Under the pieces are notes generated by a model, which saw only the letters and a list, made by a program, of their open reading frames with translations, did no database searches and was not told the DNA's origin. From Candidatus Iainarchaeum sp. (GTDB lineage: Archaea > Iainarchaeota > Iainarchaeia > Iainarchaeales > DTGL01): a stretch of DNA of 64,000 nt. The translations under genes and the position numbers were made by a program. Of this stretch, positions 17,701-29,317 are shown piece after piece (position 1 is the first letter of the stretch; the number at the start of each line of letters is the position of its first letter). Location of the stretch: positions 76,933-140,932 of the forward strand of contig JAVYME010000001.1 in NCBI GenBank assembly GCA_038736825.1. Direction: 5' to 3'.

Positions 17701-19275
17701 CTATTTTTTTCCTTTTTTTTCTTGTGTTGATTTTTTTAACAATAGTTCTCTTTCTTGTTGTAGTTTGAGGAGTCTTTCCCTGTAAGCGCTTTCTGAAAGC
17801 CGTCTCTTGAAAAAATCCAGTTTTGCTTTTTTTTCAAGTTCTGAAATTTTTTCAAGGCGCCTTTCAATGGAGCGCTTTTCCAGTTGCTTGAGTTTTTTTC
17901 TCCAAAAAAATGCTGAAATTGAAAGAATTAAGGCTGTTATTCCGCCTCCAAAAACAATTATTTTGCCCCAATCTATGGGTTCAATTATTTCTGTTGAAAT
18001 CTTTGCTTTTCCTGAAAAAGGCGGTTTTAAAACAATTTCAATGGTGTGGGTTCCCTGTAAAGCAAATGGCAGGCTTGCAGAGCAAAAGCCTTTTTCAGTG
18101 CAGGAAAGAGTAATTGAGTGCTGTTTTTCGTCAATGTAAAGCAATGCTTCAACCTCATTGCTTGCAACTTGTTGTCCTTCCACTTGTACTTCTATTTTTG
18201 TAGCTCCGCCACGACTTTCAGTTCTGCCTTCCATTGGGAAAACGAACAAAACCTGGTTTTCAGTCGGGCTTGCCCCTTCTGGAGAAAGCATTTCAAGAGA
18301 AAAACTGTTTTTTTCAGTTTTTGTTCCAGAAGCGTTTTTGCCTGAAACAGTTATCTTCAATTCACTGTCTTTCTCGCTAACGGGGCGCGTGAATTCTGCA
18401 CTCCAGGCTCCTCCTGCAAAAGACAATTTTTTTCTTTCCAGTATTTTTTCTTTTGACAAAAGCCAAGCCTCAAAATCCCCGCTGTTGACAACAGTTTCTT
18501 TTTGGTGAAGAGAAAAGGAAATTTTTCCAACAGGCGAGCCAAAAAAATATTTCTGTTCTTCATTGAAGGGATTGCGGACTTGAATGGTTGCTGGCTTGAA
18601 GAAAAGCGGAATGAAAAAAGTTTTTTCCTTTGAGCCTGCAAGCGCTGCCTTCAATTCCAGTTTTTCAAATTCTTCAAAGGAAGCGTCTGGAACAAAAGAG
18701 CCTTCCAAAAAAAGGTTTTTGGAATCCCATTGCAAGGCAATGCTTTTGCCTTTTATTAAGGCACTAAAATGGGAAAAGGCTTCCTTTTCACTTGAACCCA
18801 AAAACCTTTGAATGTAGGAATTGTCTTTGTCCAAGAAAGCAATACGTATCTTTTTTTCAACTCCTGTTTCGATTGCAATATCCTGTCTTGCCTCTGAAGA
18901 GGGCGGCAAAAATGCTTTGAATTCAGTTCTCGTGATTCGCACTGGCACTGTTTTTTCCCCTAAAAGCATGCCGTTGTCCTTAAGCTTTATTTGTGCTTTT
19001 ACTTGAAAGGTTTTCGGGGAAAAATCTATTGCTTCAAGGTAATATGCATGGCTTGCAAAAGGGCTTTCGGTTGAAATTTCAGTGCCATCCCCAAAACTCC
19101 AAACAAAATCCAAAACGCTTTCAGGAAAATTTTCCAGCTTTAAATTGAAATCCACTGCTTGCGCTTCAAATGCCTCGCTAGTGCTCGCTGAAAGCCCGAA
19201 ATCAAGCGAGCTATGGGCAAATGGCAAAAGCAAGAAAAGAAAGGCTGCCAAAAAAAGGCTTTTTGCCATTTTCAC
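17701..19275 (-). CDS. type-I membrane surface protein (PKD-like repeats) with coiled-coil K/E/R-rich cytoplasmic tail
   Basis: N-terminal signal peptide, WSFGDGTE PKD-like motif and a C-terminal TM (ITALILSISAFFW). The tail LEKKAKLDFFKRRLSESAYRERLLKL is homologous to the tail of the upstream 1059-aa protein. Its stop overlaps the next gene's start by 4 nt. Confidence 0.7.
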   Translation of the reverse strand: MKMAKSLFLAAFLFLLLPFAHSSLDFGLSASTSEAFEAQAVDFNLKLENFPESVLDFVWSFGDGTEISTESPFASHAYYLEAIDFSPKTFQVKAQIKLKDNGMLLGEKTVPVRITRTEFKAFLPPSSEARQDIAIETGVEKKIRIAFLDKDNSYIQRFLGSSEKEAFSHFSALIKGKSIALQWDSKNLFLEGSFVPDASFEEFEKLELKAALAGSKEKTFFIPLFFKPATIQVRNPFNEEQKYFFGSPVGKISFSLHQKETVVNSGDFEAWLLSKEKILERKKLSFAGGAWSAEFTRPVSEKDSELKITVSGKNASGTKTEKNSFSLEMLSPEGASPTENQVLFVFPMEGRTESRGGATKIEVQVEGQQVASNEVEALLYIDEKQHSITLSCTEKGFCSASLPFALQGTHTIEIVLKPPFSGKAKISTEIIEPIDWGKIIVFGGGITALILSISAFFWRKKLKQLEKRSIERRLEKISELEKKAKLDFFKRRLSESAYRERLLKLQQERELLLKKSTQEKKGKK

Positions 19276-22200
19276 CTCTCCTTGTAAAGCCTTGCCAAAA
19301 CCATTTCAATTACTTTTTCACTATAGCCCTCGTTTCTAAGCCCTCTTGCCACCTCTTCTCTTGAAAACTCTCCGATTCTTCCGCAAAGTCTTGTTGTGAG
19401 CACTATGGCTTGAACTTTTTCAGGCGCTTTCTTGAAATCCTTTGAGGGAAAAACTGTTTTCCAAAAGCCTGTTTTAATCCAAAAACCGCTTTTTAATAGA
19501 GAATCAATGCATTTCAGTCCTTTGCTTAAAAGCCTTATTTGTTCGCCGAGCTCGCTTTCAGAAATATGCCTTTTGAAAAACTCAAACTTGTATTTTTTCT
19601 CCAGTCCAGTCAAGCGCTCTTTTTCCCTAAGCAAGAAAGCCCTTTCAGAAAAAACATTTCTTAAAAGCAATGCAAGGAAAACCAGGATTACAATGCAAGC
19701 AAAACCGAAAGCCAGCAAAGCAAGGCTTAAGCCTTGCTCAATGGTTGCAATAACTGTTCCTTCTCCAGAAAAATCTTCTTTTAAAACAAGCTTGAGTGAA
19801 TGCGTTCCAGCCAGCAAGGGCGAACTCAAAACCCCCTTGTGCAATTTTTCTTTTTCGTCAAACTTGAGTGAAACAGGCTGCAGGTTGCCGTCAACCAGCA
19901 AATCGCTGTTCAATGCAATGTTGGCAAACAAGTGGTTGTTGGGCTGGAAAAACCTAACACTTATCTCGCTTATTTTGCCATTCCAGGGCTTGTTCAAGCC
20001 AGCGCTGGGTTGAACAAAAACCATTTGCAGGTTGTTTGAAAGTGAAATTGTTAAAAACTCTAAATCCATCAATTCTTTGCCGTCAAGAGTGGCGTGTGCT
20101 TCAAGCCGGCAGCTCACGCTTTTTTTGCCAGAATCCTGCAATGGCAAAAGGATTTTCGCAGAATATTGCTGGCTTTCTTTATCAAAATCCATTTCCTCCA
20201 AAAAATCCAGTTCAGGGCATTCCACAATGATTTTTTTGTTTTTAACCTTGTAATTGTCTGAAAGAATTTTTGCCTTCAAGTTAACTGTTTGCCCGAAAGC
20301 ATACTCGCGCTCACTGTTCACTGGCTCCAATATTGAAATAACCAGTGCCGAGTTTTTTGCAAGCGGAACCGCTTGCACTTCATCAACCTTGTTGCCTGCA
20401 GCATCCCTGCCCTTCAATTTCAACTTTAAACCATGCAAAAAATCGGTTTCATTCACAGTATGGTCAAAATAAAGCGTGTAATCAAACTCGTTTTTTTCAA
20501 TTCTCACTTCTTCCTCTTTTTTGCCTGAAACAAGCACTGCCCTTAACTCGCTTGGAAAAACCACGATTATGCCGTTCAACAAAAACATTACTTTGGCTTT
20601 TTCAAGGGAATCAAGCAAAAAATATTTTTTGCCCTTGAAGACATTGGTTGCCTTGAAAAAAGAAGGCTCAAAAAACACTGGCGCTTTTGCATGGAACTCG
20701 CGCTTTTCCCCCTTAACCTCACTCAAAGCATGAATTTCCAAGAATTCAGTTTCAGAAAGCGAACTCCAAGGCTTAAAAATTCCCTCAAAAATTGTTCCAG
20801 AACAATGCATTTCAACCAGCGAGCCAGCAAGCAAAACCCTGAGCGAAATTCCTTGACAAGCAATCCTTTCATCGGCTTCATCCAAAAACTCCAAGCGCAC
20901 ATTCAAATCCCTTTGCTTTGAATTTGTCTGCACATGGGTTGGCTCCAAAACTCTTGCCTTAAACTTGGACTTTAAAACCTTAACCTTAACCTCTGCGCCT
21001 GCAGTCTGCCCTTTGGAATCACTAACGCGAACCTTCACCAAAAACTCTCGCTCTTTCTCCAAACCCAAAAAATAAGCGTGAAATGCCTCTCTCTGGCTTG
21101 CATTAGAGTCATCACCGAAATCCCAGAAAAATTCAAGCGACTCTTCATTCAAAGCATTAGTGATTGCAGTGAAATAAAAATATTGTCCTTCAAATTGCTG
21201 CCTGCTTTCAGGGTCAACCAGTACTGTCAAAACCTGCAATGGCTCGTCCTTTAAAGAAGTTTTAAAGGACAAAACAGGGCTTTCCCTTGAAAGGCTTTGC
21301 GTTGAAGAAACTGCCTTGAAAAAATAGTTTGTTTCCGGTTTCAATCCAAGCAAGTGGATTTTGTGGTGAATTGTTTTAGTGCCGTCAAAAACCCTTGAAC
21401 CCAAAGCACTGGTTTCACCGAACTCCACTGCAGAATCGGATTGCACTAAAGTGTTCCAGTAAACCTTTGCATGAGTGGCAAAAGCAAAAACCTGAACATT
21501 TTTTGGATCAATATCCTGCAATCCTGCTTTCAAAATGCAGCGGTTTTCTTGACTGCAATAAAAGCCTTCCTCGCACTTTGCAGTGCAATCAATTTTTTGC
21601 CCGCAATTATTGCTTTTAGAACCACACTCGCTCTCGGAACACGAAAGGGCTTTGCAGCATTTTCCATTAATGCAATTCCAGCCAGCACTGCAAGAGCACT
21701 GAATTGTGCCACCGCAATCATTTGAAAAAGAACCGCATTGTCCTGCAAAATCCCTTGAACACGACTTGCAGGATTGCAAGCATTTCCCGTTCAAGCAACC
21801 CCCCGAACAAAACTCGCTTTCAATCCTCGAGCAATCCGCATTAGAGTAAACCCTTGTAGAACCAGAACAAAACCATCCTTGAACACAAGGTTGAAGCAAA
21901 CCACTAGAAGCAGCACTAGAACCCTGTGGTTTGCACTCAGGACACAAAGAACTGCCATCACCTGATTGTGATAAATTTTGTCCTGGCATTTGATAAACAG
22001 CTGCAGGAGAGCCCTTAGCTTTTGATTGCAAATAATCATCATATGGGTCGCCCCCCTTAGACAAATCCTCATAAGAACCACCGGCAGGTGCCGCTCCATC
22101 ATCTTGTCCTAGCTCATTTACTCCTCCTGTAGCTCCTGTTTGACTCAAGCCATCATCATTTTGGACAAAAGTTGGAGTGGAAGCGCCATCAGCAGCCCCG

Positions 22201-22451
22201 CTAGGCAAACTTGGGCCAGGCGAGTTGTTAGTTGGGGGATTGAGTGCGTCGTCTGAAACAGGGCAATCTGGACAGTAGTATGCGCCTGTGCCTTCGGTTA
22301 CAGCAAAATATGCTGTTTTTTCTTTAGGCAAGGCTAATGAAAAGAAACCGGTTTTTTCGCTTAAAATGGTTTCATAAAACAGCCAGGTTATGGCTAGCAC
22401 TAAAACTATTGCCAACAAAAAGGCAGGCTTTTTTGAAAAAACTGAAGGCAT
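19272..22451 (-). CDS. giant type-I membrane surface protein: acidic G/D/S/P-rich region, Cys-rich EGF/laminin-like module, FN3/PKD-like repeats, TM and ~150-aa cytoplasmic tail
   Basis: 1059 aa with signal anchor and a run of CxxxxC repeats (CSGGCLNGKCLQSCKSC...CGQKIDCTAKCEEGFYC). WDFGDDSNA PKD-like and PETNYFFKAVS FN3-like motifs. C-terminal TM followed by LEKKYKFEFFKRHISESELGEQIRLL. Confidence 0.75.
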   Translation of the reverse strand: MPSVFSKKPAFLLAIVLVLAITWLFYETILSEKTGFFSLALPKEKTAYFAVTEGTGAYYCPDCPVSDDALNPPTNNSPGPSLPSGAADGASTPTFVQNDDGLSQTGATGGVNELGQDDGAAPAGGSYEDLSKGGDPYDDYLQSKAKGSPAAVYQMPGQNLSQSGDGSSLCPECKPQGSSAASSGLLQPCVQGWFCSGSTRVYSNADCSRIESEFCSGGCLNGKCLQSCKSCSRDFAGQCGSFSNDCGGTIQCSCSAGWNCINGKCCKALSCSESECGSKSNNCGQKIDCTAKCEEGFYCSQENRCILKAGLQDIDPKNVQVFAFATHAKVYWNTLVQSDSAVEFGETSALGSRVFDGTKTIHHKIHLLGLKPETNYFFKAVSSTQSLSRESPVLSFKTSLKDEPLQVLTVLVDPESRQQFEGQYFYFTAITNALNEESLEFFWDFGDDSNASQREAFHAYFLGLEKEREFLVKVRVSDSKGQTAGAEVKVKVLKSKFKARVLEPTHVQTNSKQRDLNVRLEFLDEADERIACQGISLRVLLAGSLVEMHCSGTIFEGIFKPWSSLSETEFLEIHALSEVKGEKREFHAKAPVFFEPSFFKATNVFKGKKYFLLDSLEKAKVMFLLNGIIVVFPSELRAVLVSGKKEEEVRIEKNEFDYTLYFDHTVNETDFLHGLKLKLKGRDAAGNKVDEVQAVPLAKNSALVISILEPVNSEREYAFGQTVNLKAKILSDNYKVKNKKIIVECPELDFLEEMDFDKESQQYSAKILLPLQDSGKKSVSCRLEAHATLDGKELMDLEFLTISLSNNLQMVFVQPSAGLNKPWNGKISEISVRFFQPNNHLFANIALNSDLLVDGNLQPVSLKFDEKEKLHKGVLSSPLLAGTHSLKLVLKEDFSGEGTVIATIEQGLSLALLAFGFACIVILVFLALLLRNVFSERAFLLREKERLTGLEKKYKFEFFKRHISESELGEQIRLLSKGLKCIDSLLKSGFWIKTGFWKTVFPSKDFKKAPEKVQAIVLTTRLCGRIGEFSREEVARGLRNEGYSEKVIEMVLARLYKER

Positions 22452-22654
22452 ACTATACTTAAGGTTTCTTTTTTATTAATCTTTTCCTTGCTCTTTCAGA
22501 AAGGTTTGAGAAAGCAAAACCATTAAAACACAAAAAAACAGCAAAACAATAAAAAGTTATGGCCAGGCAGTGCAATTAAAAACATTTTTAAAAACATACA
22601 ACATAACTATTTTTAATTAAATAATGAAATTTTTTGGCGTGGAGGGGTTTGAGA

Positions 22655-23926
22655 ATGCTTTTCGGTTTTCCTTTGAAATTCTTTGACCAAAAATTTAAAC
22701 CAGTTGCTTTTTTATCGGTTTTGGCTTTACTGGTTTTTTTTGCCTCGAATTCTTTTGCTCAACAAAGAGTGGAACTGGCAAATCCAGTGTGCTTTTATGA
22801 TGTCAATCAAATGCACGAATACTTTACTGACTTGCAGGGCAATAAAATTCCAAACCTGGACTTTATAAGGCTTTTTAGCGCTATTGAAGCAAAACCCCAA
22901 AACGACCCTTCAATAAAGGACGAAATAAAGCGCGCGCTCAGGGGACAATTTTATACTGGTTATTTGCAGCTCGCTTACACTATTGAAGGCGGAAAAAAGA
23001 ACCCTTTCAAGGGAGGCAATTATGCTAAATGCGATTTAGGTTGCTTTCCACAATTTACTTATTTTGGGAGAACCTATTACAACAAGTGCATTACAAGGAT
23101 TTGCACTGAGGGCAGAATGGTTGGCACTCCTCGTTTTTGTGATCCAAAAATCGGACCCGATATTTACATTCACTACCTGACTTTTTGGTGCGAAGATGTT
23201 CCACAGGCAACAATGATTTGCGGGCCGTCAGCTCATTGCGAGCAAAGAGCGGATGGCACTTTTTTGTGTGAATACAATAGCGCAACTTCTTCAAACCAAA
23301 GCAATGGCGTGGAATATGTTTTGGTTGCTCCAGCGGATTCAAGCTCTCAAATAATGGTTGCAGCATACCAGAACGGAAAGCTCATTGCAAGCAAGCCGAT
23401 TGGCACAACAGGCCCTGTTCATGCAAGCCAGGCTTATGCTTTTGCGCAAAGCACTGGATTGGCTTCGGTTGTGGCTTCAGCACTCCAGCAAAAAACAACA
23501 ACCACTGCTTCCAGTAAGCCTAGCACAACCTATTCTGCATCATACAATGGCAGCACAAACTATTCTTCAACTCCAATAAGAATGCAGGTTGTTGCTAGTG
23601 CCACAAAAGGCCTTTCAGCCTATAGAGCGCCAACTGCAACCTACAAAACATATTCAACCACAAGCACAGCCAGCACTGCAACATACGCTTACAGCACAAG
23701 CCAAACCAAAAGCACTTCTGCAAGCAGTTATTCTTCAAGCACAACTTATTCGCCAACAAAAACCACTTATAGCAATACGGTTTCACCTTATTCAACTTCA
23801 AATTACAGGATTCAAGCAACAACTTATAATCCGACAAGGACAGCATACTCTACAAACGCTTACACAAGCACTTACAGCACCACAACACAGGCTACGGCGA
23901 GTGTTTCAAAATACAGGCAAACCTGA
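22655..23926 (+). CDS. secreted protein with Cys-containing N-terminal domain and ~170-aa Ser/Thr/Tyr-rich low-complexity C-terminal region
   Basis: Signal peptide MLFGFPLKFFDQKFKPVAFLSVLALLVFFASNSFAQQ (the track begins at a TTG at 22634). The C-terminus is dominated by S, T, Y and A (TYSTTSTASTATYAYSTSQTKSTSASSYSSSTTYSPTKTTYS...). Confidence 0.6.
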   Translation: MLFGFPLKFFDQKFKPVAFLSVLALLVFFASNSFAQQRVELANPVCFYDVNQMHEYFTDLQGNKIPNLDFIRLFSAIEAKPQNDPSIKDEIKRALRGQFYTGYLQLAYTIEGGKKNPFKGGNYAKCDLGCFPQFTYFGRTYYNKCITRICTEGRMVGTPRFCDPKIGPDIYIHYLTFWCEDVPQATMICGPSAHCEQRADGTFLCEYNSATSSNQSNGVEYVLVAPADSSSQIMVAAYQNGKLIASKPIGTTGPVHASQAYAFAQSTGLASVVASALQQKTTTTASSKPSTTYSASYNGSTNYSSTPIRMQVVASATKGLSAYRAPTATYKTYSTTSTASTATYAYSTSQTKSTSASSYSSSTTYSPTKTTYSNTVSPYSTSNYRIQATTYNPTRTAYSTNAYTSTYSTTTQATASVSKYRQT

Positions 23927-23953
23927 AACCGCATGTATTTTTTCTTTTGACAA

Positions 23954-25285
23954 TCAGGTCGTTTCCAGAAGCCATTTCCATAAAGGCATAAACCTTATTT
24001 TTTTACCCTTGTATTCTTCAATTCCTTCAAAATCAGCGTTAACCACCAGCAAATTGTTACACTTGAGCTCTGTGCTTGCTTTGAGCAGTCCTTCAAGTTC
24101 TCGTTTTTTGGTTTCAAAATCACTCAAATCATAGCAAACCTGAATTAACTGGAGCACCTTTGGACCTTCCTTTAAAACAAAATCAACCTCTTTGCCTGAA
24201 GAGTCCTTCCAGTAATAGATTTCTGCAGGGGCTTCCAAATAAGACTTTCTCCTAAGCAATTCAATTGCAACCGCATTTTCAACAAGCTTGCCATAATTTT
24301 GGCTTAATTTGAAAGAAACCGCGTTTACAAGGCCAGTGTCAATACAATAGATCTTTTTAGGGGCTTTGATTTGCTCTTTCAACTTGGGTGAAAATCTTTC
24401 AAGTTTGAAAAACAAATAGGAGTTTTCCAAATAAGCAATCCAATTGGACACCGTGTGAGTGCTCTTTAAGCCCAAAATGTTTTTCAGCCGGTTGTAAGTT
24501 AATTCAGAAGAGGTATTGGAAATCAAATACCTTGAAAGCTCTTTAAGTTTCGAAACATATTTTATTTTATACCTTTGAATTACGTCCTTTTCAATGATGT
24601 CACTATAAGTTTCTATAAGAAACAGTCTGCCCAGCTTAAAAGCCAGGGGAAACCCGCCTTCACGCAAATATCTTTCCAAAAAATTCTTTAATTTTGCAAC
24701 AGACTTTGTGGAATACTGGTCTTTTTTATCAAACTCAACCCCAGCATAATCCAAAAACTCTCTGAAGCTGAACGGAAAAAGAACAAAATCAATATGCCTG
24801 CCGGTTAAAAAAGTGGAAAGCTCTTTACTCATCAATCGCGCATTGCTGCCAGTGACAATTACCTTCTTCCCAGTGCTGACTCTAGAAACAAAACGCTCCC
24901 ACCCACTAACATTCTGGATTTCGTCAAAAACAAGAAGGCTAACATCGCCTTTTAAAGAATAAACTGCCTCTATAACTGAATTCAAGTCACGAACAGCCAC
25001 GCCGAGTCGCTCATCTTCAAAATTCACATATCCTCTCCGGTCTGATTCAAAACATTGAAAAGCAAAAACAGACTTGCCACATCGCCTGACACCGGTTATT
25101 ATCACTATAACATCCGTGGAAATAAACTTTTTAACTTGGCTAAGGCATTCCCTCTCAATAATTCGCTCACTCTTGAACTTATCAAGCAAAGCCTCTTCTC
25201 TGTCCACAATTGCAGATTTAATATCCCCCAACAAAACCATAAAAAAAAAGTAACGCAAAGATTTTAAAAAACTTTGCGTTGGCAA
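23954..25285 (-). CDS. AAA+ ATPase of the COG1373/DUF4143 family
   Basis: Walker A ITGVRRCGKS and Walker B LLVFDEIQ. Overall archaeal 'ATPase + DUF4143' architecture, 443 aa. Confidence 0.8.
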   Translation of the reverse strand: MPTQSFLKSLRYFFFMVLLGDIKSAIVDREEALLDKFKSERIIERECLSQVKKFISTDVIVIITGVRRCGKSVFAFQCFESDRRGYVNFEDERLGVAVRDLNSVIEAVYSLKGDVSLLVFDEIQNVSGWERFVSRVSTGKKVIVTGSNARLMSKELSTFLTGRHIDFVLFPFSFREFLDYAGVEFDKKDQYSTKSVAKLKNFLERYLREGGFPLAFKLGRLFLIETYSDIIEKDVIQRYKIKYVSKLKELSRYLISNTSSELTYNRLKNILGLKSTHTVSNWIAYLENSYLFFKLERFSPKLKEQIKAPKKIYCIDTGLVNAVSFKLSQNYGKLVENAVAIELLRRKSYLEAPAEIYYWKDSSGKEVDFVLKEGPKVLQLIQVCYDLSDFETKKRELEGLLKASTELKCNNLLVVNADFEGIEEYKGKKIRFMPLWKWLLETT

Positions 25286-25457
25286 CGCTAACCTGTTTTA
25301 GCCTAGCAAATCCAGCATCCAATACCTTATCGTATACCAAAAACGGTTTTCGATTTAGAGAATTGATAAAAAAAGCCTGCAGGTTAAAGCCAAAGCAAAC
25401 CTGAAGCCAGCTATTGCTTTTTTCTCTTTTTCTTTTCTTTTCACTATAGTGAATTGA

Positions 25458-25895
25458 ATGGATTTTTTTTTGGGTTCAGACCATGGCGGGTATCCCTTAA
25501 AGGAAAAAGTCAAAAAATGGCTGGAAAGCGAAGGCCATTCAATAAAAGATTTTGGCTGTTTTTCAGTGGAAAGCTGTGATTATCCCGAGTTTGCTGAAAA
25601 GGTTGCAAGAGCAGTTACAAAAAATAAAGATTCAATTGGATTGCTTTTTTGCGGCACTGGAATTGGCATGAGCATTGCAGCAAACAAAATCAAGGGAATA
25701 CGGGCAGCACTCTTGCATAACGCTTTTGAGGGAAAAATGGCAAAAGAGCACAACAATGCAAACGTGCTCTGCTTTGGAGGCAGAACTGTTTCTTTCAGGA
25801 ATGCAAAAAAGGCAATCACTGCTTTTTTAAAGGCAGAATTTGTGGGCGGCAGGCATTTGCGGAGAATAGAAAAAATTGCAGCACTCGAGAGATGA
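25458..25895 (+). CDS. rpiB: ribose-5-phosphate isomerase B (RpiB/LacA family)
   Basis: LGSDHGGYPLKE...FCGTGIGMSIAANKIKGIRAAL is characteristic of RpiB. 145 aa. Confidence 0.9.
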   Translation: MDFFLGSDHGGYPLKEKVKKWLESEGHSIKDFGCFSVESCDYPEFAEKVARAVTKNKDSIGLLFCGTGIGMSIAANKIKGIRAALLHNAFEGKMAKEHNNANVLCFGGRTVSFRNAKKAITAFLKAEFVGGRHLRRIEKIAALER

Positions 25896-26317
25896 AAATG
25901 TTTGAATTGTTTGAGCACAAGGCAGACATTGGAGTGCGCGGTTATGGAAAAACGCTTGAAGAAGCCTTTCAAGAGTGCGCGAAGGCAATGTTCAGCGTAA
26001 TGTCAAACCTGAAAAAAGTCAAAGCCAGAGAAAGCATTGAATTGCGAGTTAGAGCGAGAAATGAAGAAGAATTGCTTGTTGCCTGGTTAAACGAATTATT
26101 GTTTGAAAAAGGCACAAAAGAAATGCTGTTCTCTGAATTCAAAGTGAAAATTTCAAAGGAAAAAGAAGGACTGGTTTTGAAAGGCACAGTGAAAGGCGAA
26201 AAAATGAACCACAAAAAACATGAAATGAAAACAGAAGTCAAAGGAGCAACCTATTCTGGCTTGAAAGTGATTAAAGAAAAAGAAAAGTATTTAGCGCAAT
26301 GCATTGTCGATGTATAA
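25892..26317 (+). CDS. archease (RtcB ligase activator)
   Basis: MFELFEHKADIGVRGYGKTLEEAFQECAKAMFSVM matches the archease N-terminal signature. 141 aa. Overlaps the rpiB stop. Confidence 0.85.
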   Translation: MKMFELFEHKADIGVRGYGKTLEEAFQECAKAMFSVMSNLKKVKARESIELRVRARNEEELLVAWLNELLFEKGTKEMLFSEFKVKISKEKEGLVLKGTVKGEKMNHKKHEMKTEVKGATYSGLKVIKEKEKYLAQCIVDV

Positions 26318-26379
26318 AGCAATTGCAGCAAAGCCGCGTGGTTTGACAATAATGTTTAAATAGTGGAAATGCGTAATAT

Positions 26380-27185
26380 TTGAGAATGAAAAGATTTGGT
26401 TTTTTGCCTTCAGTTTTTTACTGTCTCGCCATGTTCGGCTTGATTTTCACGCTAGTGGCAGCCCAAGAAGAAGTAAGGCAGCTTTCCATTAAAATTGAAG
26501 GCTTGCGCTATGTAAGGCATGAAACAGTAACCATTACGGCGCTTTTTGATGGGCAACCCGTTGCTGGCGTTGATGTAAATGTTTTTTTCAAAGATTTGAA
26601 CCTGAAAAAACAGACCAAAACAAAATAATATTGCAAAGAATAGAAGATTATAAGACAGACAGTCAAGGCAAGTTTTCCTTTAAATTGCATGAAGCCGGCA
26701 CTTACTTTTTATTTTTTGCCAAAAAAGAAGGAACCATTTTTTACGCAGCAAGCGAAAAAATAGATTTTTTGATAAATCCAAGACCATATTTCAGTGCAAG
26801 CAATGGCGTTTACAATCTTTGCTTTAGGGAACCAATTGGCTCAATAACAATCATTGAAGGCGAGAAAAGAACAACCCAAAGCCTTGATGAAAACAATTGC
26901 ACTCAATACTCTCCAAAAACAGAGTCCTTCACAGTTGAAACCCCTTACAGCAAAGAATTCAAAAAGATTTCAATACCAGTAAAAGTTGAAACAGAAAAAC
27001 CAACCCCTGTCCCAACACAACCCACTCCAATACAAACACAATTTGAAGAAAAAACAAAGCCGATTTCACAACCAAAAACACAAACCCAGCCAGACTTACT
27101 GTTACCTATCAGCATATTGTTAGTTGCAAGCATATGCTTGGTTGCTGCAGGAGTTTACCTCAGAAAACGGAGGATGAATTCATGA
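26380..27185 (+). pseudogene. frameshift-interrupted gene for a small surface protein (signal peptide + carboxypeptidase-regulatory/transthyretin-like beta-sandwich + Thr/Pro linker + C-terminal TM anchor)
   Basis: Two consecutive ORFs (26380..26628 in frame 1, 26631..27185 in frame 0) together encode one domain (VTITALFDGQPVAGVDVNVFF | YKTDSQGKFSFKLHEAGTYF). Frame 0 is open from 26574. A T7 run (26582-26588) and an A6 run (26605-26610) lie in the overlap. Confidence 0.5.
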
Positions 27186-29317
27186 AAAAAATACTCTTTG
27201 TTTTGGCTCTTTTTTTAATGCTTTCCTGTGCCAATGCAGCAAAAAAAATCCAGCTCACTGTAGAAGACGACGGCATTGACCCAGTAACCCCAGAAGAAGA
27301 TGCTGACACAAAAGACAAAGCATACCTTGTAGTAGGACCAGGGCCTTACACTTTGACAGTCAAAATCCAAAACTTGCAGGAAATAGAAGAGTTTGGCGGT
27401 CCAGTTGATGTAATGGCTTTATTTGATGCCAGTTATAGCTTTAATGATGAAATCGAGGTTGTCAAAAATGACATAGAAAAACTTGGAGCAGAACTGGATC
27501 AAAACTGCCAAAAAATAGGCATTCCGGGGTGCTTCAATTTAGGGCTTTACGTTTTTGAAGGAGGCACTTGCGCTAGAAATTGTTCCAACCAATATGTTTG
27601 CACTCAAATAAATTGCAGAATAGTCACAGTTAAAGATTGGTGCACTGAGTGTACTGTAATAACAATTCCAGGCAAGTGCCAAGTTTGCGATTATGAAACT
27701 GAATGCCGTGAGGTTTGTGAATTGCGTGATAACGTGAAAGTATGCTGGCCAGAGTGCCACGAAGTGCCAAAAAACTGTCGAATGGAGCCATGTGACACAT
27801 ACAAGTGGGATTGCAAACTAGTGCCTTGCTTTGTAGAAGAAGAGGTATGCGATGAACATTGTGAATGGCAAGAAGTTTGTGGTTGGACTGTGTGCAAAAG
27901 GCCTGATGCTGCTTTTTGGAATTCCACTGATTTCCAGCAACCAGTGACTCCGCCATTGCCTTTGGATTATGCAAACGATGTTGGCTTGCTTCCCATAACA
28001 AACAATATGACGCTTGTCAAAAACAACTTGGAAAAAATTAGTGCTCCAAACTTTTCAACACAACAGCTAGAGCCATGGGGTAGCATTATAACCTATGTTT
28101 TGAATGCACCTGAAGTAAAATGGCAGGAAAACCACCGGAGGGCAATAATATTAATCACGGATGAAAAAGATGATTCTGGCACTTACAAGACTGCAGCACA
28201 ACTTGCAAAAGACCAAAACGTGGTTGTGTTCGGCATTATTGGAAAAGGAGTGGGTTCAGATGAAGCGAAAGCCAATGCTGAATATGTTGCAAACCTGACA
28301 GGCGGAAAGGTTTTCACTTATACAAATTCTGAAGAAATAAAAGCCCTATTGCGTGAAATAATGGGCTCACTCATAAAAGAAGACACTTTTGTTTTTTCAA
28401 AAGAATTAGGGCCTAACTGGGATGGAATAACTGCAAATTTTGATCTGCCGCCGGTTCCAAGAAAGGGACCCGGACTTGTTTACCCAATCAAGGGCCTTGC
28501 TCCAGCGGTTTGGCCTACAACTGAGGAATATTTCCATTACAGGGTTTCCTTGAAAAGCAATCCGGCTGTTTTTGATGATGCTTGGGTTAGAGTGACCATT
28601 AATACGCCGCCAACTGCCGATTTTGAAATGATTCCAACTCCGCCAACTGGAATGGTGCCTTTAAGCGTAAAATTCGTCAACAAATCAACAGACAACGAAG
28701 GAAACATTACAAACTACCATTGGGTTTTTGGCGATCCATCTTCAGGAGCAGACAATGAAAGTAATGAAGAAAACCCAACACACGTTTTCCAATATGCTGG
28801 AGAATATTCAGTCACTCTTACAGTAACCGACAGCGGGCAAGCAAGTCACAGTGTTACAAAAAAAGTCATGGCAAAAGAAAGGCCCCTAATTTCTGCGTTC
28901 AAGGCGAATAATCCCAAGACACCAGATGAAGGACTGGACATCACGGTTTACTGCACAAAATTCCAAGCCTTAATCAAAATAGAAATACTGGACAAGGATG
29001 GATTGTTGGTGACAAAGGACAAAGACGGCAACCCCATAACAAACCCAATAAAAATTCCTGGAACAAATGATTGGCCGAGATGCGGAAGCACCATTAGCCC
29101 TGACATCAGGCTTTCAAGCGGAGTCTACCAAATAAGGGCAACAATAATGAAAGATGATGGCAGCGGTCCAGACCCGGATTGCACTAATTGTCCGAAAAGC
29201 ACACACATAACCGTGGGAATGAGCGCACCAGAAATGCAAACCCCAGAAATTCCAGCAATACTAACAACAATAATAGCGCTTGCAGTGATTGTCATTACAA
29301 ACAGGAAAAAGAAATAG
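27182..29317 (+). CDS. secreted multidomain surface protein: vWA-like domain (MIDAS DxSxS) with Cys-rich insertion, PKD domain, conserved C-terminal sorting signal (PEIPAIL-TM-NRKKK)
   Basis: Start chosen at MKKILFVLALFLMLSCANA, preceded by GGAGG. LFDASYSFNDE (DxSxS), AIILITDEKDD, VVVFGIIG. 26 Cys within ~120 aa. PTADFEMIPTPPTGMVPLSVKF PKD. C-terminus is near-identical to the 16389..17639 protein. Confidence 0.75.
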   Translation: MKKILFVLALFLMLSCANAAKKIQLTVEDDGIDPVTPEEDADTKDKAYLVVGPGPYTLTVKIQNLQEIEEFGGPVDVMALFDASYSFNDEIEVVKNDIEKLGAELDQNCQKIGIPGCFNLGLYVFEGGTCARNCSNQYVCTQINCRIVTVKDWCTECTVITIPGKCQVCDYETECREVCELRDNVKVCWPECHEVPKNCRMEPCDTYKWDCKLVPCFVEEEVCDEHCEWQEVCGWTVCKRPDAAFWNSTDFQQPVTPPLPLDYANDVGLLPITNNMTLVKNNLEKISAPNFSTQQLEPWGSIITYVLNAPEVKWQENHRRAIILITDEKDDSGTYKTAAQLAKDQNVVVFGIIGKGVGSDEAKANAEYVANLTGGKVFTYTNSEEIKALLREIMGSLIKEDTFVFSKELGPNWDGITANFDLPPVPRKGPGLVYPIKGLAPAVWPTTEEYFHYRVSLKSNPAVFDDAWVRVTINTPPTADFEMIPTPPTGMVPLSVKFVNKSTDNEGNITNYHWVFGDPSSGADNESNEENPTHVFQYAGEYSVTLTVTDSGQASHSVTKKVMAKERPLISAFKANNPKTPDEGLDITVYCTKFQALIKIEILDKDGLLVTKDKDGNPITNPIKIPGTNDWPRCGSTISPDIRLSSGVYQIRATIMKDDGSGPDPDCTNCPKSTHITVGMSAPEMQTPEIPAILTTIIALAVIVITNRKKK

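What the first reader, a model, noticed from the sequence alone, without database searches (positions are those of the whole stretch)
26574..26640. Frameshift in a small surface-protein gene, located between two homopolymer runs
ORFs 26380..26628 (frame 1) and 26631..27185 (frame 0) together encode one signal-peptide protein whose beta-sandwich domain (carboxypeptidase-regulatory/transthyretin-like: ...VTITALFDGQPVAGVDVNVFF | ...YKTDSQGKFSFKLHEAGTYFLFF) is split by the frame change. Frame 0 is already open from 26574. The overlap contains a T7 run (26582-26588) and an A6 run in gaaaaaac (26605-26610). A single-base insertion at either run would restore one 260-aa ORF. Possible explanations are a homopolymer sequencing or assembly error, a true pseudogene, phase-variable expression through homopolymer slippage, or a -1 ribosomal frameshift.
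Basis: seen in the sequence. Interest (0 to 1): 0.5.

Follow-up and report, generated by a model that had tools for sequence, protein, structure and literature searches.

The report
One-base frameshift splitting a surface-protein gene
A small cell-surface protein gene of a DPANN archaeon (Candidatus Diapherotrites/Iainarchaeum) is missing one base in a run of T's, which splits it into two pieces; this is almost certainly an ordinary mutation or sequence error and not a special decoding mechanism.

Summary
ORF 26386-26628 (frame 1) and ORF 26631-27185 (frame 0, open from 26574) are two halves of one gene. Five intact relatives (250-264 aa) cover both halves collinearly. Pfam DUF4198 passes its threshold only on the fused protein. 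A structure model puts the break inside the first of two beta-sandwich domains.

Homology places the lesion at the T7 run (26582-26588), not the A6 run. The closest relatives read RF-QR[FM]E. The window reads VFF (frame 1) followed by QRFE (frame 0), one base short.

No relative is split or has a homopolymer at this site. There is no downstream RNA structure. The T_TTT_TTC heptamer is one of 339 in-register slippery heptamers in the window's intact genes, and it arises automatically when one T is lost from T8. About 217 other A/T runs of 7 or more bases lie in uninterrupted ORFs, so homopolymer error is not pervasive.

Best reading: an unprogrammed single-base loss. It is either a recent real mutation (about 0.5) or an assembly error (about 0.3); only the reads can decide. 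Programmed -1 frameshifting and evolved phase variation are each below 0.1. The finding is ordinary and of low interest. The two deposited proteins (MEM0359780.1 and MEM0359781.1) should be annotated as one disrupted gene.

The parts
26355..26362 (+). TTTAAATA, a likely archaeal TATA box 23 nt upstream of ATG 26386 (leaderless mRNA inferred)
   Evidence: The same octamer lies 21-23 nt upstream of the ATG in the intact relatives L001, L003 and L004. Promoter function is inferred from this geometry, not tested.
26386..26628 (+). Upstream half as annotated (80 aa, MEM0359780.1). It holds the signal peptide and the first four strands of beta-sandwich 1. Only 26386-26588 is homologous to relatives; 26590-26628 (KDLNLKKQTKTK*) is out-of-frame read-on.
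26574..26628 (+). 55-nt overlap in which both frame 1 and frame 0 are open
26582..26588 (+). T7 run, the site of the missing base. The ancestral state was GTT TTT TTY CAA. In frame 1 it reads as the heptamer T_TTT_TTC (26583-26589).
   Evidence: Junction codons in relatives are CGC TTC CAG CGG TTT GAA (L001) and CGC TTT CAG AGG ATG GAA (L003), against GTT TTT TT- CAA AGA TTT GAA in the window.
26605..26610 (+). A6 run, which is not the lesion site
   Evidence: The conserved QRFEPE motif, read in frame 0, lies upstream of this run.
26589..27185 (+). Downstream part in frame 0, annotated from TTG 26631 as the 184-aa MEM0359781.1. It holds the rest of beta-sandwich 1, beta-sandwich 2 with a conserved Cys pair, a Pro/Thr-rich stalk, a PD(Y/L)(T/L)LP motif, a TM helix and an RKRR tail.
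   Evidence: There is no SD-like motif upstream of TTG 26631.
27169..27173 (+). GGAGG Shine-Dalgarno-like motif for the downstream VWA/PKD gene
   Evidence: AGGAGG or GAGG sits at the same position in L001, L003 and L004.
27182..29317 (+). Conserved partner gene, a VWA + PKD surface protein (711 aa, MEM0359782.1). It overlaps the 3' end of the split gene by 4 nt (ATGA).

Best explanation
This is one gene encoding a ~266-aa anchored surface protein: signal peptide, two tandem beta-sandwich domains, a Pro/Thr-rich stalk and a C-terminal TM anchor. It has lost one base from an ancestral T8 tract (GTT TTT TTY CAA became GTTTTTTTCAA) in this lineage. Ribosomes that start at ATG 26386 therefore run out of frame after Phe-Phe and stop at TAA 26626, producing an 80-aa fragment that cannot fold. 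The rest of the gene is not independently translated. The lesion is most likely a genuine and very recent slipped-strand deletion: either a strain-level null allele or the majority allele in the sampled population. It sits in a dispensable surface-protein gene. It is not a programmed recoding site. Shown: single-gene identity, position of the lesion, intact state of all relatives, absence of frameshift stimulators. Inferred: that the base is truly missing in the DNA and not in the assembly, and that no functional product is made.
For: Five full-length relatives (P0002-P0006, 250-264 aa) align collinearly across both halves. Gene order is conserved: RpiB, archease, this gene, VWA/PKD gene, RtcB, PMT. 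The DUF4198 match is split 147-172 / 183-203 between the halves and passes the threshold only when they are fused. In the AlphaFold model of P0002 (pLDDT 82.9) the junction F68|Q69 lies at the end of strand 63-69, with strands 86-130 of the same sandwich encoded downstream. The window is exactly one base short at the Phe codon before the conserved Gln-Arg. There is no other lesion in the 800-nt gene, and the TATA box, start codon and downstream SD are all retained, so the event is recent. About 217 other A/T runs of 7+ bases sit in uninterrupted ORFs, and all 20 neighbouring genes tested are full length, so the assembly is accurate at homopolymers. The one break falls in the surface/unknown gene class, which holds only 11% (24 of 218) of coding runs of 7+ bases. 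That is what purifying selection on real mutations predicts; random error would land there only about 1 time in 9.
Against: Reads could not be inspected, so a consensus or assembly error at the T tract cannot be excluded. The location argument rests on a single event. No closer strain (>55% identity) exists in any searched collection to show the T8 state directly. The heptamer T_TTT_TTC would allow some low-level -1 slippage, so 'no functional product' is not strictly shown.
Confidence: 0.5

Rival explanations
1. Sequencing or assembly consensus error. The organism's gene is intact (T8), and one T was dropped during assembly or polishing of the MAG contig.
For: The lesion is a single-base length change in a homopolymer, the classic error type. 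The gene is otherwise perfect, with intact promoter, start and downstream coupling signals. For singleton frameshifted genes validated by homology, GeneTack's authors expect sequencing errors rather than genuine indels (PMC3711429). The source is a metagenome-assembled genome.
Against: It is 1 of about 218 coding runs of 7+ bases, and 83 runs of 8+ bases are all in frame. No other gene in 64 kb is broken. A random error had only about an 11% chance of landing in a surface/unknown gene.
Confidence: 0.3
2. Programmed -1 ribosomal frameshifting on T_TTT_TTC (26583-26589), or transcriptional slippage on the U7 tract, yields the full-length protein VFF-QRFE at a regulated level, as in Saccharolobus solfataricus fucA1.
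For: A canonical X_XXY_YYZ heptamer lies in the correct register, and tandem slippage there gives exactly the family-conserved sequence and length. The layout resembles fucA1: 80 aa + 184 aa with a 55-nt overlap here, against 81 + 426 aa with a 40-nt overlap there (PMC8211752). The rest of the gene is undamaged.
Against: The heptamer is the automatic result of deleting one T from GTT TTT TTT C, so it is not independent evidence. The window's 72 intact ORFs hold 339 in-register slippery heptamers, including 8 T_TTT_TTC and 50 A_AAA_AAG, so this organism's ribosomes must read them faithfully. There is no downstream structure: MFE -1.5 kcal/mol for the next 61 nt, z-scores -0.6 to -1.1, about 25% GC. 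No Rfam element is present and there is no convincing upstream SD-like element. The frameshift is not conserved: 5 of 5 relatives are intact and have no homopolymer at the site. In E. coli, heptamers without stimulators reach only 2-10 times a 0.055% background (PMC4066793). Seven U's is below the 8 or more typical of programmed transcriptional realignment (PMC3711429).
Confidence: 0.07
3. Evolved phase variation. The T tract is a contingency locus that switches this surface protein on (T8) and off (T7) by slipped-strand mispairing within the population.
For: The gene encodes a surface-exposed protein in a cluster of surface proteins, which is the usual kind of target. The lesion is a tract-length change. 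DPANN archaea depend on cell-cell contact, so variable surfaces are plausible (inference).
Against: A 7-8-nt A/T tract is not unusual here: the window has 252 runs of 7+ bases, about one every 250 bp, mostly in essential genes. The tract is absent from all relatives. No tract-length polymorphism could be observed. Known contingency A/T tracts are generally longer (general knowledge).
Confidence: 0.08
4. These are two genuinely separate small genes.
For: They were deposited as two hypothetical proteins.
Against: The halves match consecutive parts of one Pfam domain and of one beta-sandwich. All relatives are single ORFs. ORF2 has no SD or promoter and no signal peptide. The ORF1 tail after the T run is unconserved.
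Confidence: 0.02

Closest known systems
Singleton frameshifted genes in prokaryotic genomes (indel pseudogene or sequencing error; GeneTack 'singleton fs-genes', PMC3711429)
   Same: Two adjacent same-strand ORFs that together match one protein family. The frameshift is confirmed by both homology and Pfam. The break is not shared by homologues and lies at a homopolymer.
   Different: Nothing material. This case fits the class.
Saccharolobus solfataricus fucA1, the only experimentally shown archaeal -1 programmed ribosomal frameshift (PMC1616953, PMC8211752)
   Same: A short N-terminal ORF (81 aa there, 80 aa here) and a longer C-terminal ORF in the -1 frame, overlapping by tens of nt. Both have a homopolymeric X_XXY_YYZ heptamer. 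Full-length homologues differ by one base in the run.
   Different: In fucA1 the slippery site, rare codons and stem-loop are conserved at 100% DNA identity across Sulfolobales, the split recurs in a second strain, and the product was detected in vivo and in vitro. Here there is no flanking stimulator, no conservation and no second split example, and the heptamer is common background in this genome.
Pfam DUF4198 (PF10670) and other transthyretin/prealbumin-like beta-sandwich domains (CarboxypepD_reg, bMG3, SdrD_B)
   Same: The first beta-sandwich of the repaired protein matches the C-terminal 147-203 of the 209-position DUF4198 model above threshold. It also gives weak hits to other transthyretin-like families.
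   Different: Only about a quarter of the DUF4198 model is matched, and relatives P0002-P0006 fall below the threshold (22-31.5 bits). The overall architecture (two tandem sandwiches, P/T stalk, C-terminal TM anchor) and the fold-search hits are generic Ig/FN3-like tandems.

Membership tests
Frameshift-disrupted single gene (pseudogene or sequence error) | Intact homologues span both ORFs collinearly | tested here: met
   P0002-P0006 (250-264 aa) align across the junction.
Frameshift-disrupted single gene (pseudogene or sequence error) | One structural or sequence domain is cut by the frame change | tested here: met
   DUF4198 scores 17.6 bits (profile 147-172) and 14.7 bits (183-203) on the halves, against 41 bits on the fusion. 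The junction lies at the end of strand 63-69 of sandwich 1 in the P0002 model.
Frameshift-disrupted single gene (pseudogene or sequence error) | The lesion is present in the underlying reads or DNA, which separates mutation from error | not testable with these tools
   There is no read access. No second assembly or closer strain was found in any collection.
Programmed -1 ribosomal frameshift site | Slippery heptamer X_XXY_YYZ in the 0 frame at the transition | tested here: met
   T_TTT_TTC at 26583-26589. It is not discriminating: 339 such heptamers occur in intact ORFs, and it arises automatically from a T8 to T7 change.
Programmed -1 ribosomal frameshift site | Stimulatory RNA structure 5-9 nt downstream, or an upstream SD-like element | tested here: not met
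   MFE -1.5 kcal/mol over 61 nt, z-scores -0.6 to -1.1. No Rfam element. Pseudoknots were not modelled explicitly, but the region is about 25% GC.
Programmed -1 ribosomal frameshift site | The frameshift and its signal are conserved in orthologues | tested here: not met
   5 of 5 full-length relatives are single ORFs. The three whose DNA was read at the site (L001, L003) have no homopolymer there.
Programmed -1 ribosomal frameshift site | The trans-frame protein product is detected | not testable with these tools
   This needs proteomics or reporter assays.
Programmed transcriptional slippage | Homopolymer of about 8-9 nt or longer, conserved | tested here: not met
   The run is 7 nt, is absent in relatives, and the criterion comes from PMC3711429.
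Phase-variable contingency locus | A tract unusually long for the genome and maintained in relatives | tested here: not met
   The window has 252 runs of 7+ bases. The tract is absent in relatives.
Phase-variable contingency locus | Tract-length polymorphism within the population | not testable with these tools
   This needs read pile-ups.
Pfam DUF4198 (PF10670) | Score above the gathering threshold over the domain | tested here: inconclusive
   The repaired window protein scores 41 bits against a threshold of 34, but covers only profile positions 147-203 of 209. Relatives score 22-31.5 bits, below threshold.

The most novel reading that the evidence does not exclude
The T7 state is real and uniform in the population, and full-length protein is still made by -1 slippage on U_UUU_UUC, either as a regulated event or as adventitious rescue of an indel. 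That would be the second cellular -1 frameshift known in Archaea and the first in a DPANN lineage, and it would work without any recognisable stimulator.
Probability: 0.06. Interest if true: 0.6.

Novelty: already known. Interest (0 to 1): 0.12.

Why it matters
The main value is for annotation. MEM0359780.1 (80 aa) and MEM0359781.1 (184 aa) are fragments of one gene and should be merged or flagged as disrupted, so they do not seed spurious protein families. These are small anchored two-beta-sandwich proteins that always sit upstream of, and overlap, a VWA/PKD surface-protein gene in Iainarchaeia (Diapherotrites). If reads proved the lesion real, it would be a small example of surface-protein gene decay or variation by homopolymer slippage in a genome unusually rich in A/T runs.

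Tried and rejected
1. A6 run (26605-26610) as the lesion site: rejected, because the conserved QRFEPE motif is read in frame 0 upstream of it. Pfam cannot tell the two repairs apart (41 bits for each).
2. A search for closer strains or alternative assemblies that would show the tract length directly: nothing closer than 55% identity was found. This covered search for homologous proteins, the genome-contig scan, two metagenome-contig scans and an exact look-up of the repaired protein. The look-up of encoding contigs found no record for ORF2/P0001.
3. A downstream stimulatory RNA structure: none. Rfam gave only a chance minus-strand hit, PK-BYV at 17.7 bits against a gathering score of 50.
4. 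Pervasive homopolymer error, as in a long-read artefact: rejected by the run census and by full-length Pfam matches for 20 neighbouring genes.
5. Independent expression of ORF2: there is no SD-like motif upstream, and the sigma-70 scan hits are at chance level and irrelevant for an archaeon.
6. A specific functional assignment from fold search: only generic tandem Ig/FN3-like matches came back, with TM-scores of 0.2-0.39.
7. dN/dS on the two halves was considered and not run. At about 55% protein identity the synonymous sites are saturated, so it would say nothing about the terminal branch.

Full report
**Observation**

The window (41% GC) comes from a DPANN archaeon MAG labelled Candidatus Diapherotrites. 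The finding's coordinates are correct.
- The frame-1 ORF runs 26380..26628. Its likely start is ATG 26386, which gives the 80-aa product deposited as MEM0359780.1.
- The frame-0 ORF runs 26631..27185 (184 aa, MEM0359781.1). Frame 0 is open from 26574.
- The 55-nt overlap contains a T7 run at 26582-26588 and an A6 run at 26605-26610.
- Adding one base at either run gives a single ORF of 266 aa from the ATG.

**Is it one gene?**

Yes. A word-indexed search of 5.8 billion proteins found only the downstream half itself and one intact 264-aa relative, P0002, at 55% identity. An exhaustive HMMER search of 1.84 billion cluster representatives with P0002 added four more intact full-length relatives, P0003-P0006 (250-263 aa). 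It also returned the two window fragments as orphan entries.

All five relatives align collinearly across the junction. Gene order is also conserved.
- In L003 the order is RpiB, archease, this gene (261 aa), VWA/PKD protein, RtcB, PMT. This matches the window.
- In L001 and in L004/L005 the gene again sits directly upstream of the VWA/PKD gene and overlaps it by a few bases.

Pfam DUF4198 gives a direct test of the split.
- ORF1 alone scores 17.6 bits on profile positions 147-172.
- ORF2 alone scores 14.7 bits on positions 183-203.
- Only the fused protein passes the gathering threshold: 41 bits against 34, covering positions 147-203.

An AlphaFold model of P0002 (mean pLDDT 82.9) shows a signal/TM helix, two tandem beta-sandwiches, a disordered Pro/Thr stalk and a C-terminal TM helix. 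The junction (F68|Q69) falls at the end of strand 63-69, and strands 86-130 of the same sandwich are encoded downstream. Neither fragment could fold alone. Fold search returned only generic tandem Ig/FN3-like hits.

**Where exactly is the lesion?**

The closest relatives read ..VEMRFQRFE.. (P0002) and ..VEIRFQRME.. (P0003). The window reads ..VNVFF in frame 1, followed directly by QRFEPE.. in frame 0.

At the DNA level the junction codons are as follows.

| Locus | Junction codons |
|---|---|
| L001 | CGC TTC CAG CGG TTT GAA |
| L003 | CGC TTT CAG AGG ATG GAA |
| window | GTT TTT TT- CAA AGA TTT GAA |

One base is therefore missing within 26584-26589. The ancestral tract was T8 followed by C, or T7 followed by CC. 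The A6 run lies downstream of residues that are already conserved in frame 0, so it is excluded. No relative whose DNA was read has a homopolymer at this site.

**Is it programmed?**

In frame 1 the T run forms the canonical heptamer T_TTT_TTC (26583-26589). Tandem -1 slippage there would give exactly VFFQRFE. This is weak evidence, for four reasons.
- **The heptamer is automatic.** Deleting one T from GTT TTT TTT C produces this heptamer in this register.
- **The heptamer is common here.** The window's 72 uninterrupted ORFs contain 339 in-register X_XXY_YYZ heptamers, including 8 identical T_TTT_TTC and 50 A_AAA_AAG. The motif is genomic background, and this organism's ribosomes must read it faithfully.
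- **No stimulator was found.** The next 61 nt are about 25% GC and fold at -1.5 kcal/mol (z = -0.64). Longer windows give z of about -1. Rfam finds nothing. There is no convincing SD-like element upstream, although the organism does use GGAGG/GGTGA Shine-Dalgarno sequences.
- **The shift is not conserved.** All five relatives are intact.

In E. coli, heptamers without stimulators reach only 2-10 times a 0.055% background (PMC4066793). The only demonstrated archaeal -1 PRF is S. solfataricus fucA1. It has a superficially similar layout (81 + 426 aa, 40-nt overlap, A_AAA_AAT), but it also has conserved flanking signals, a second split strain and a detected product (PMC8211752). Seven U's is also short for programmed transcriptional realignment, which typically needs 8 or more (PMC3711429).

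Evolved phase variation is likewise unsupported. A/T runs of 7 or more bases occur 252 times in 64 kb, mostly in essential genes, and the tract is absent from relatives.

**Mutation or error?**

The assembly is accurate at homopolymers.
- About 217 other A/T runs of 7+ bases, including 83 of 8+ bases, lie inside uninterrupted ORFs.
- All 20 other genes tested by Pfam give full-length matches: rpoB''/B', rpoA'/A'', L30e, NusA, S12, S7, EF-2, EF-1alpha, S10, L3, L4 and others.

The break is therefore an isolated event. It falls in the surface/unknown gene class, which holds only 11% of coding runs of 7+ bases. That fits a real mutation surviving where selection is weak, and would happen under random error only about 1 time in 9. 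This argument rests on a single event.

The gene carries no second lesion. It keeps its TTTAAATA box 23 nt upstream of the ATG, a geometry shared with L001, L003 and L004 that suggests a leaderless mRNA. It also keeps the GGAGG that serves the overlapping downstream gene. Any real inactivation is therefore very recent. GeneTack's authors expect sequencing errors rather than genuine indels for singleton frameshifted genes that are validated by homology (PMC3711429).

My estimates are below.

| Explanation | Probability |
|---|---|
| Real recent deletion | about 0.5 |
| Assembly or sequencing error | about 0.3 |
| Evolved phase variation | about 0.08 |
| Programmed recoding | about 0.07 |
| Two separate genes | about 0.02 |

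**Consequence as encoded**

Translation from ATG 26386 ends at TAA 26626 and gives an 80-aa signal-peptide fragment. ORF2 has no Shine-Dalgarno sequence or promoter and no signal peptide, so it is probably silent. The downstream VWA/PKD gene has its own GGAGG and can still be translated.

**Verdict**

The phenomenon is an ordinary singleton frameshift. It has no novelty and low interest, and its practical outcome is an annotation correction. Only the reads, which are unavailable here, can settle mutation against error.

Noticed in passing
whole window (e.g. 38.6-51 kb ribosomal-protein operon): Sense-strand poly-A runs of 7+ bases are very dense and enriched beyond codon usage: 199 in genes, against 113.5 +/- 10 after shuffling codons within genes. 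Lys makes up 11.5% of codons, with AAA:AAG at 1800:470. As a result the intact genes carry 220 in-register A_AAA_AAN heptamers. This organism must tolerate or suppress slippage on such runs.
   Followed up: partly
window 19272-29317; L003 1-7948; L004 1749-6756: A surface-protein gene cluster is conserved in Iainarchaeia/Diapherotrites. It comprises a ~400-430-aa protein with no Pfam hit, the ~250-266-aa two-beta-sandwich anchored protein, a ~680-727-aa VWA+PKD protein (overlapping the previous gene by 4-7 nt) and a ~1059-aa PKD protein. Its function is unknown. It may be a cell-surface or adhesion module.
   Followed up: partly
window 27089-27185 (C-terminus of the split gene); alignment A3 columns ~270-308: The family shares a C-terminal motif, PD(Y/L)(T/L)LP, followed by a TM helix and an RKRR-type basic tail. 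This resembles archaeosortase/exosortase-type sorting signals. The neighbouring 711-aa protein gives a weak Loki-CTERM hit (E 0.12).
   Followed up: no
window 23954-25285 (- strand): An AAA_14/DUF4143 ATPase gene sits between the 430-aa gene and rpiB. It is absent from the otherwise syntenic locus L003, so it looks like a lineage-specific insertion.
   Followed up: no
window 26355-26362; L001 514-521; L003 4972-4979; L004 ~2969-2976: An identical TTTAAATA box lies 21-23 nt upstream of the ATG in all four loci, with no SD. This is consistent with conserved leaderless transcription of this gene.
   Followed up: partly
window 25463-25471: The rpiB gene starts with a T9 run (ATG GAT TTT TTT TTA) and is intact. 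This shows that long sense-strand T tracts are tolerated and correctly assembled here.
   Followed up: no
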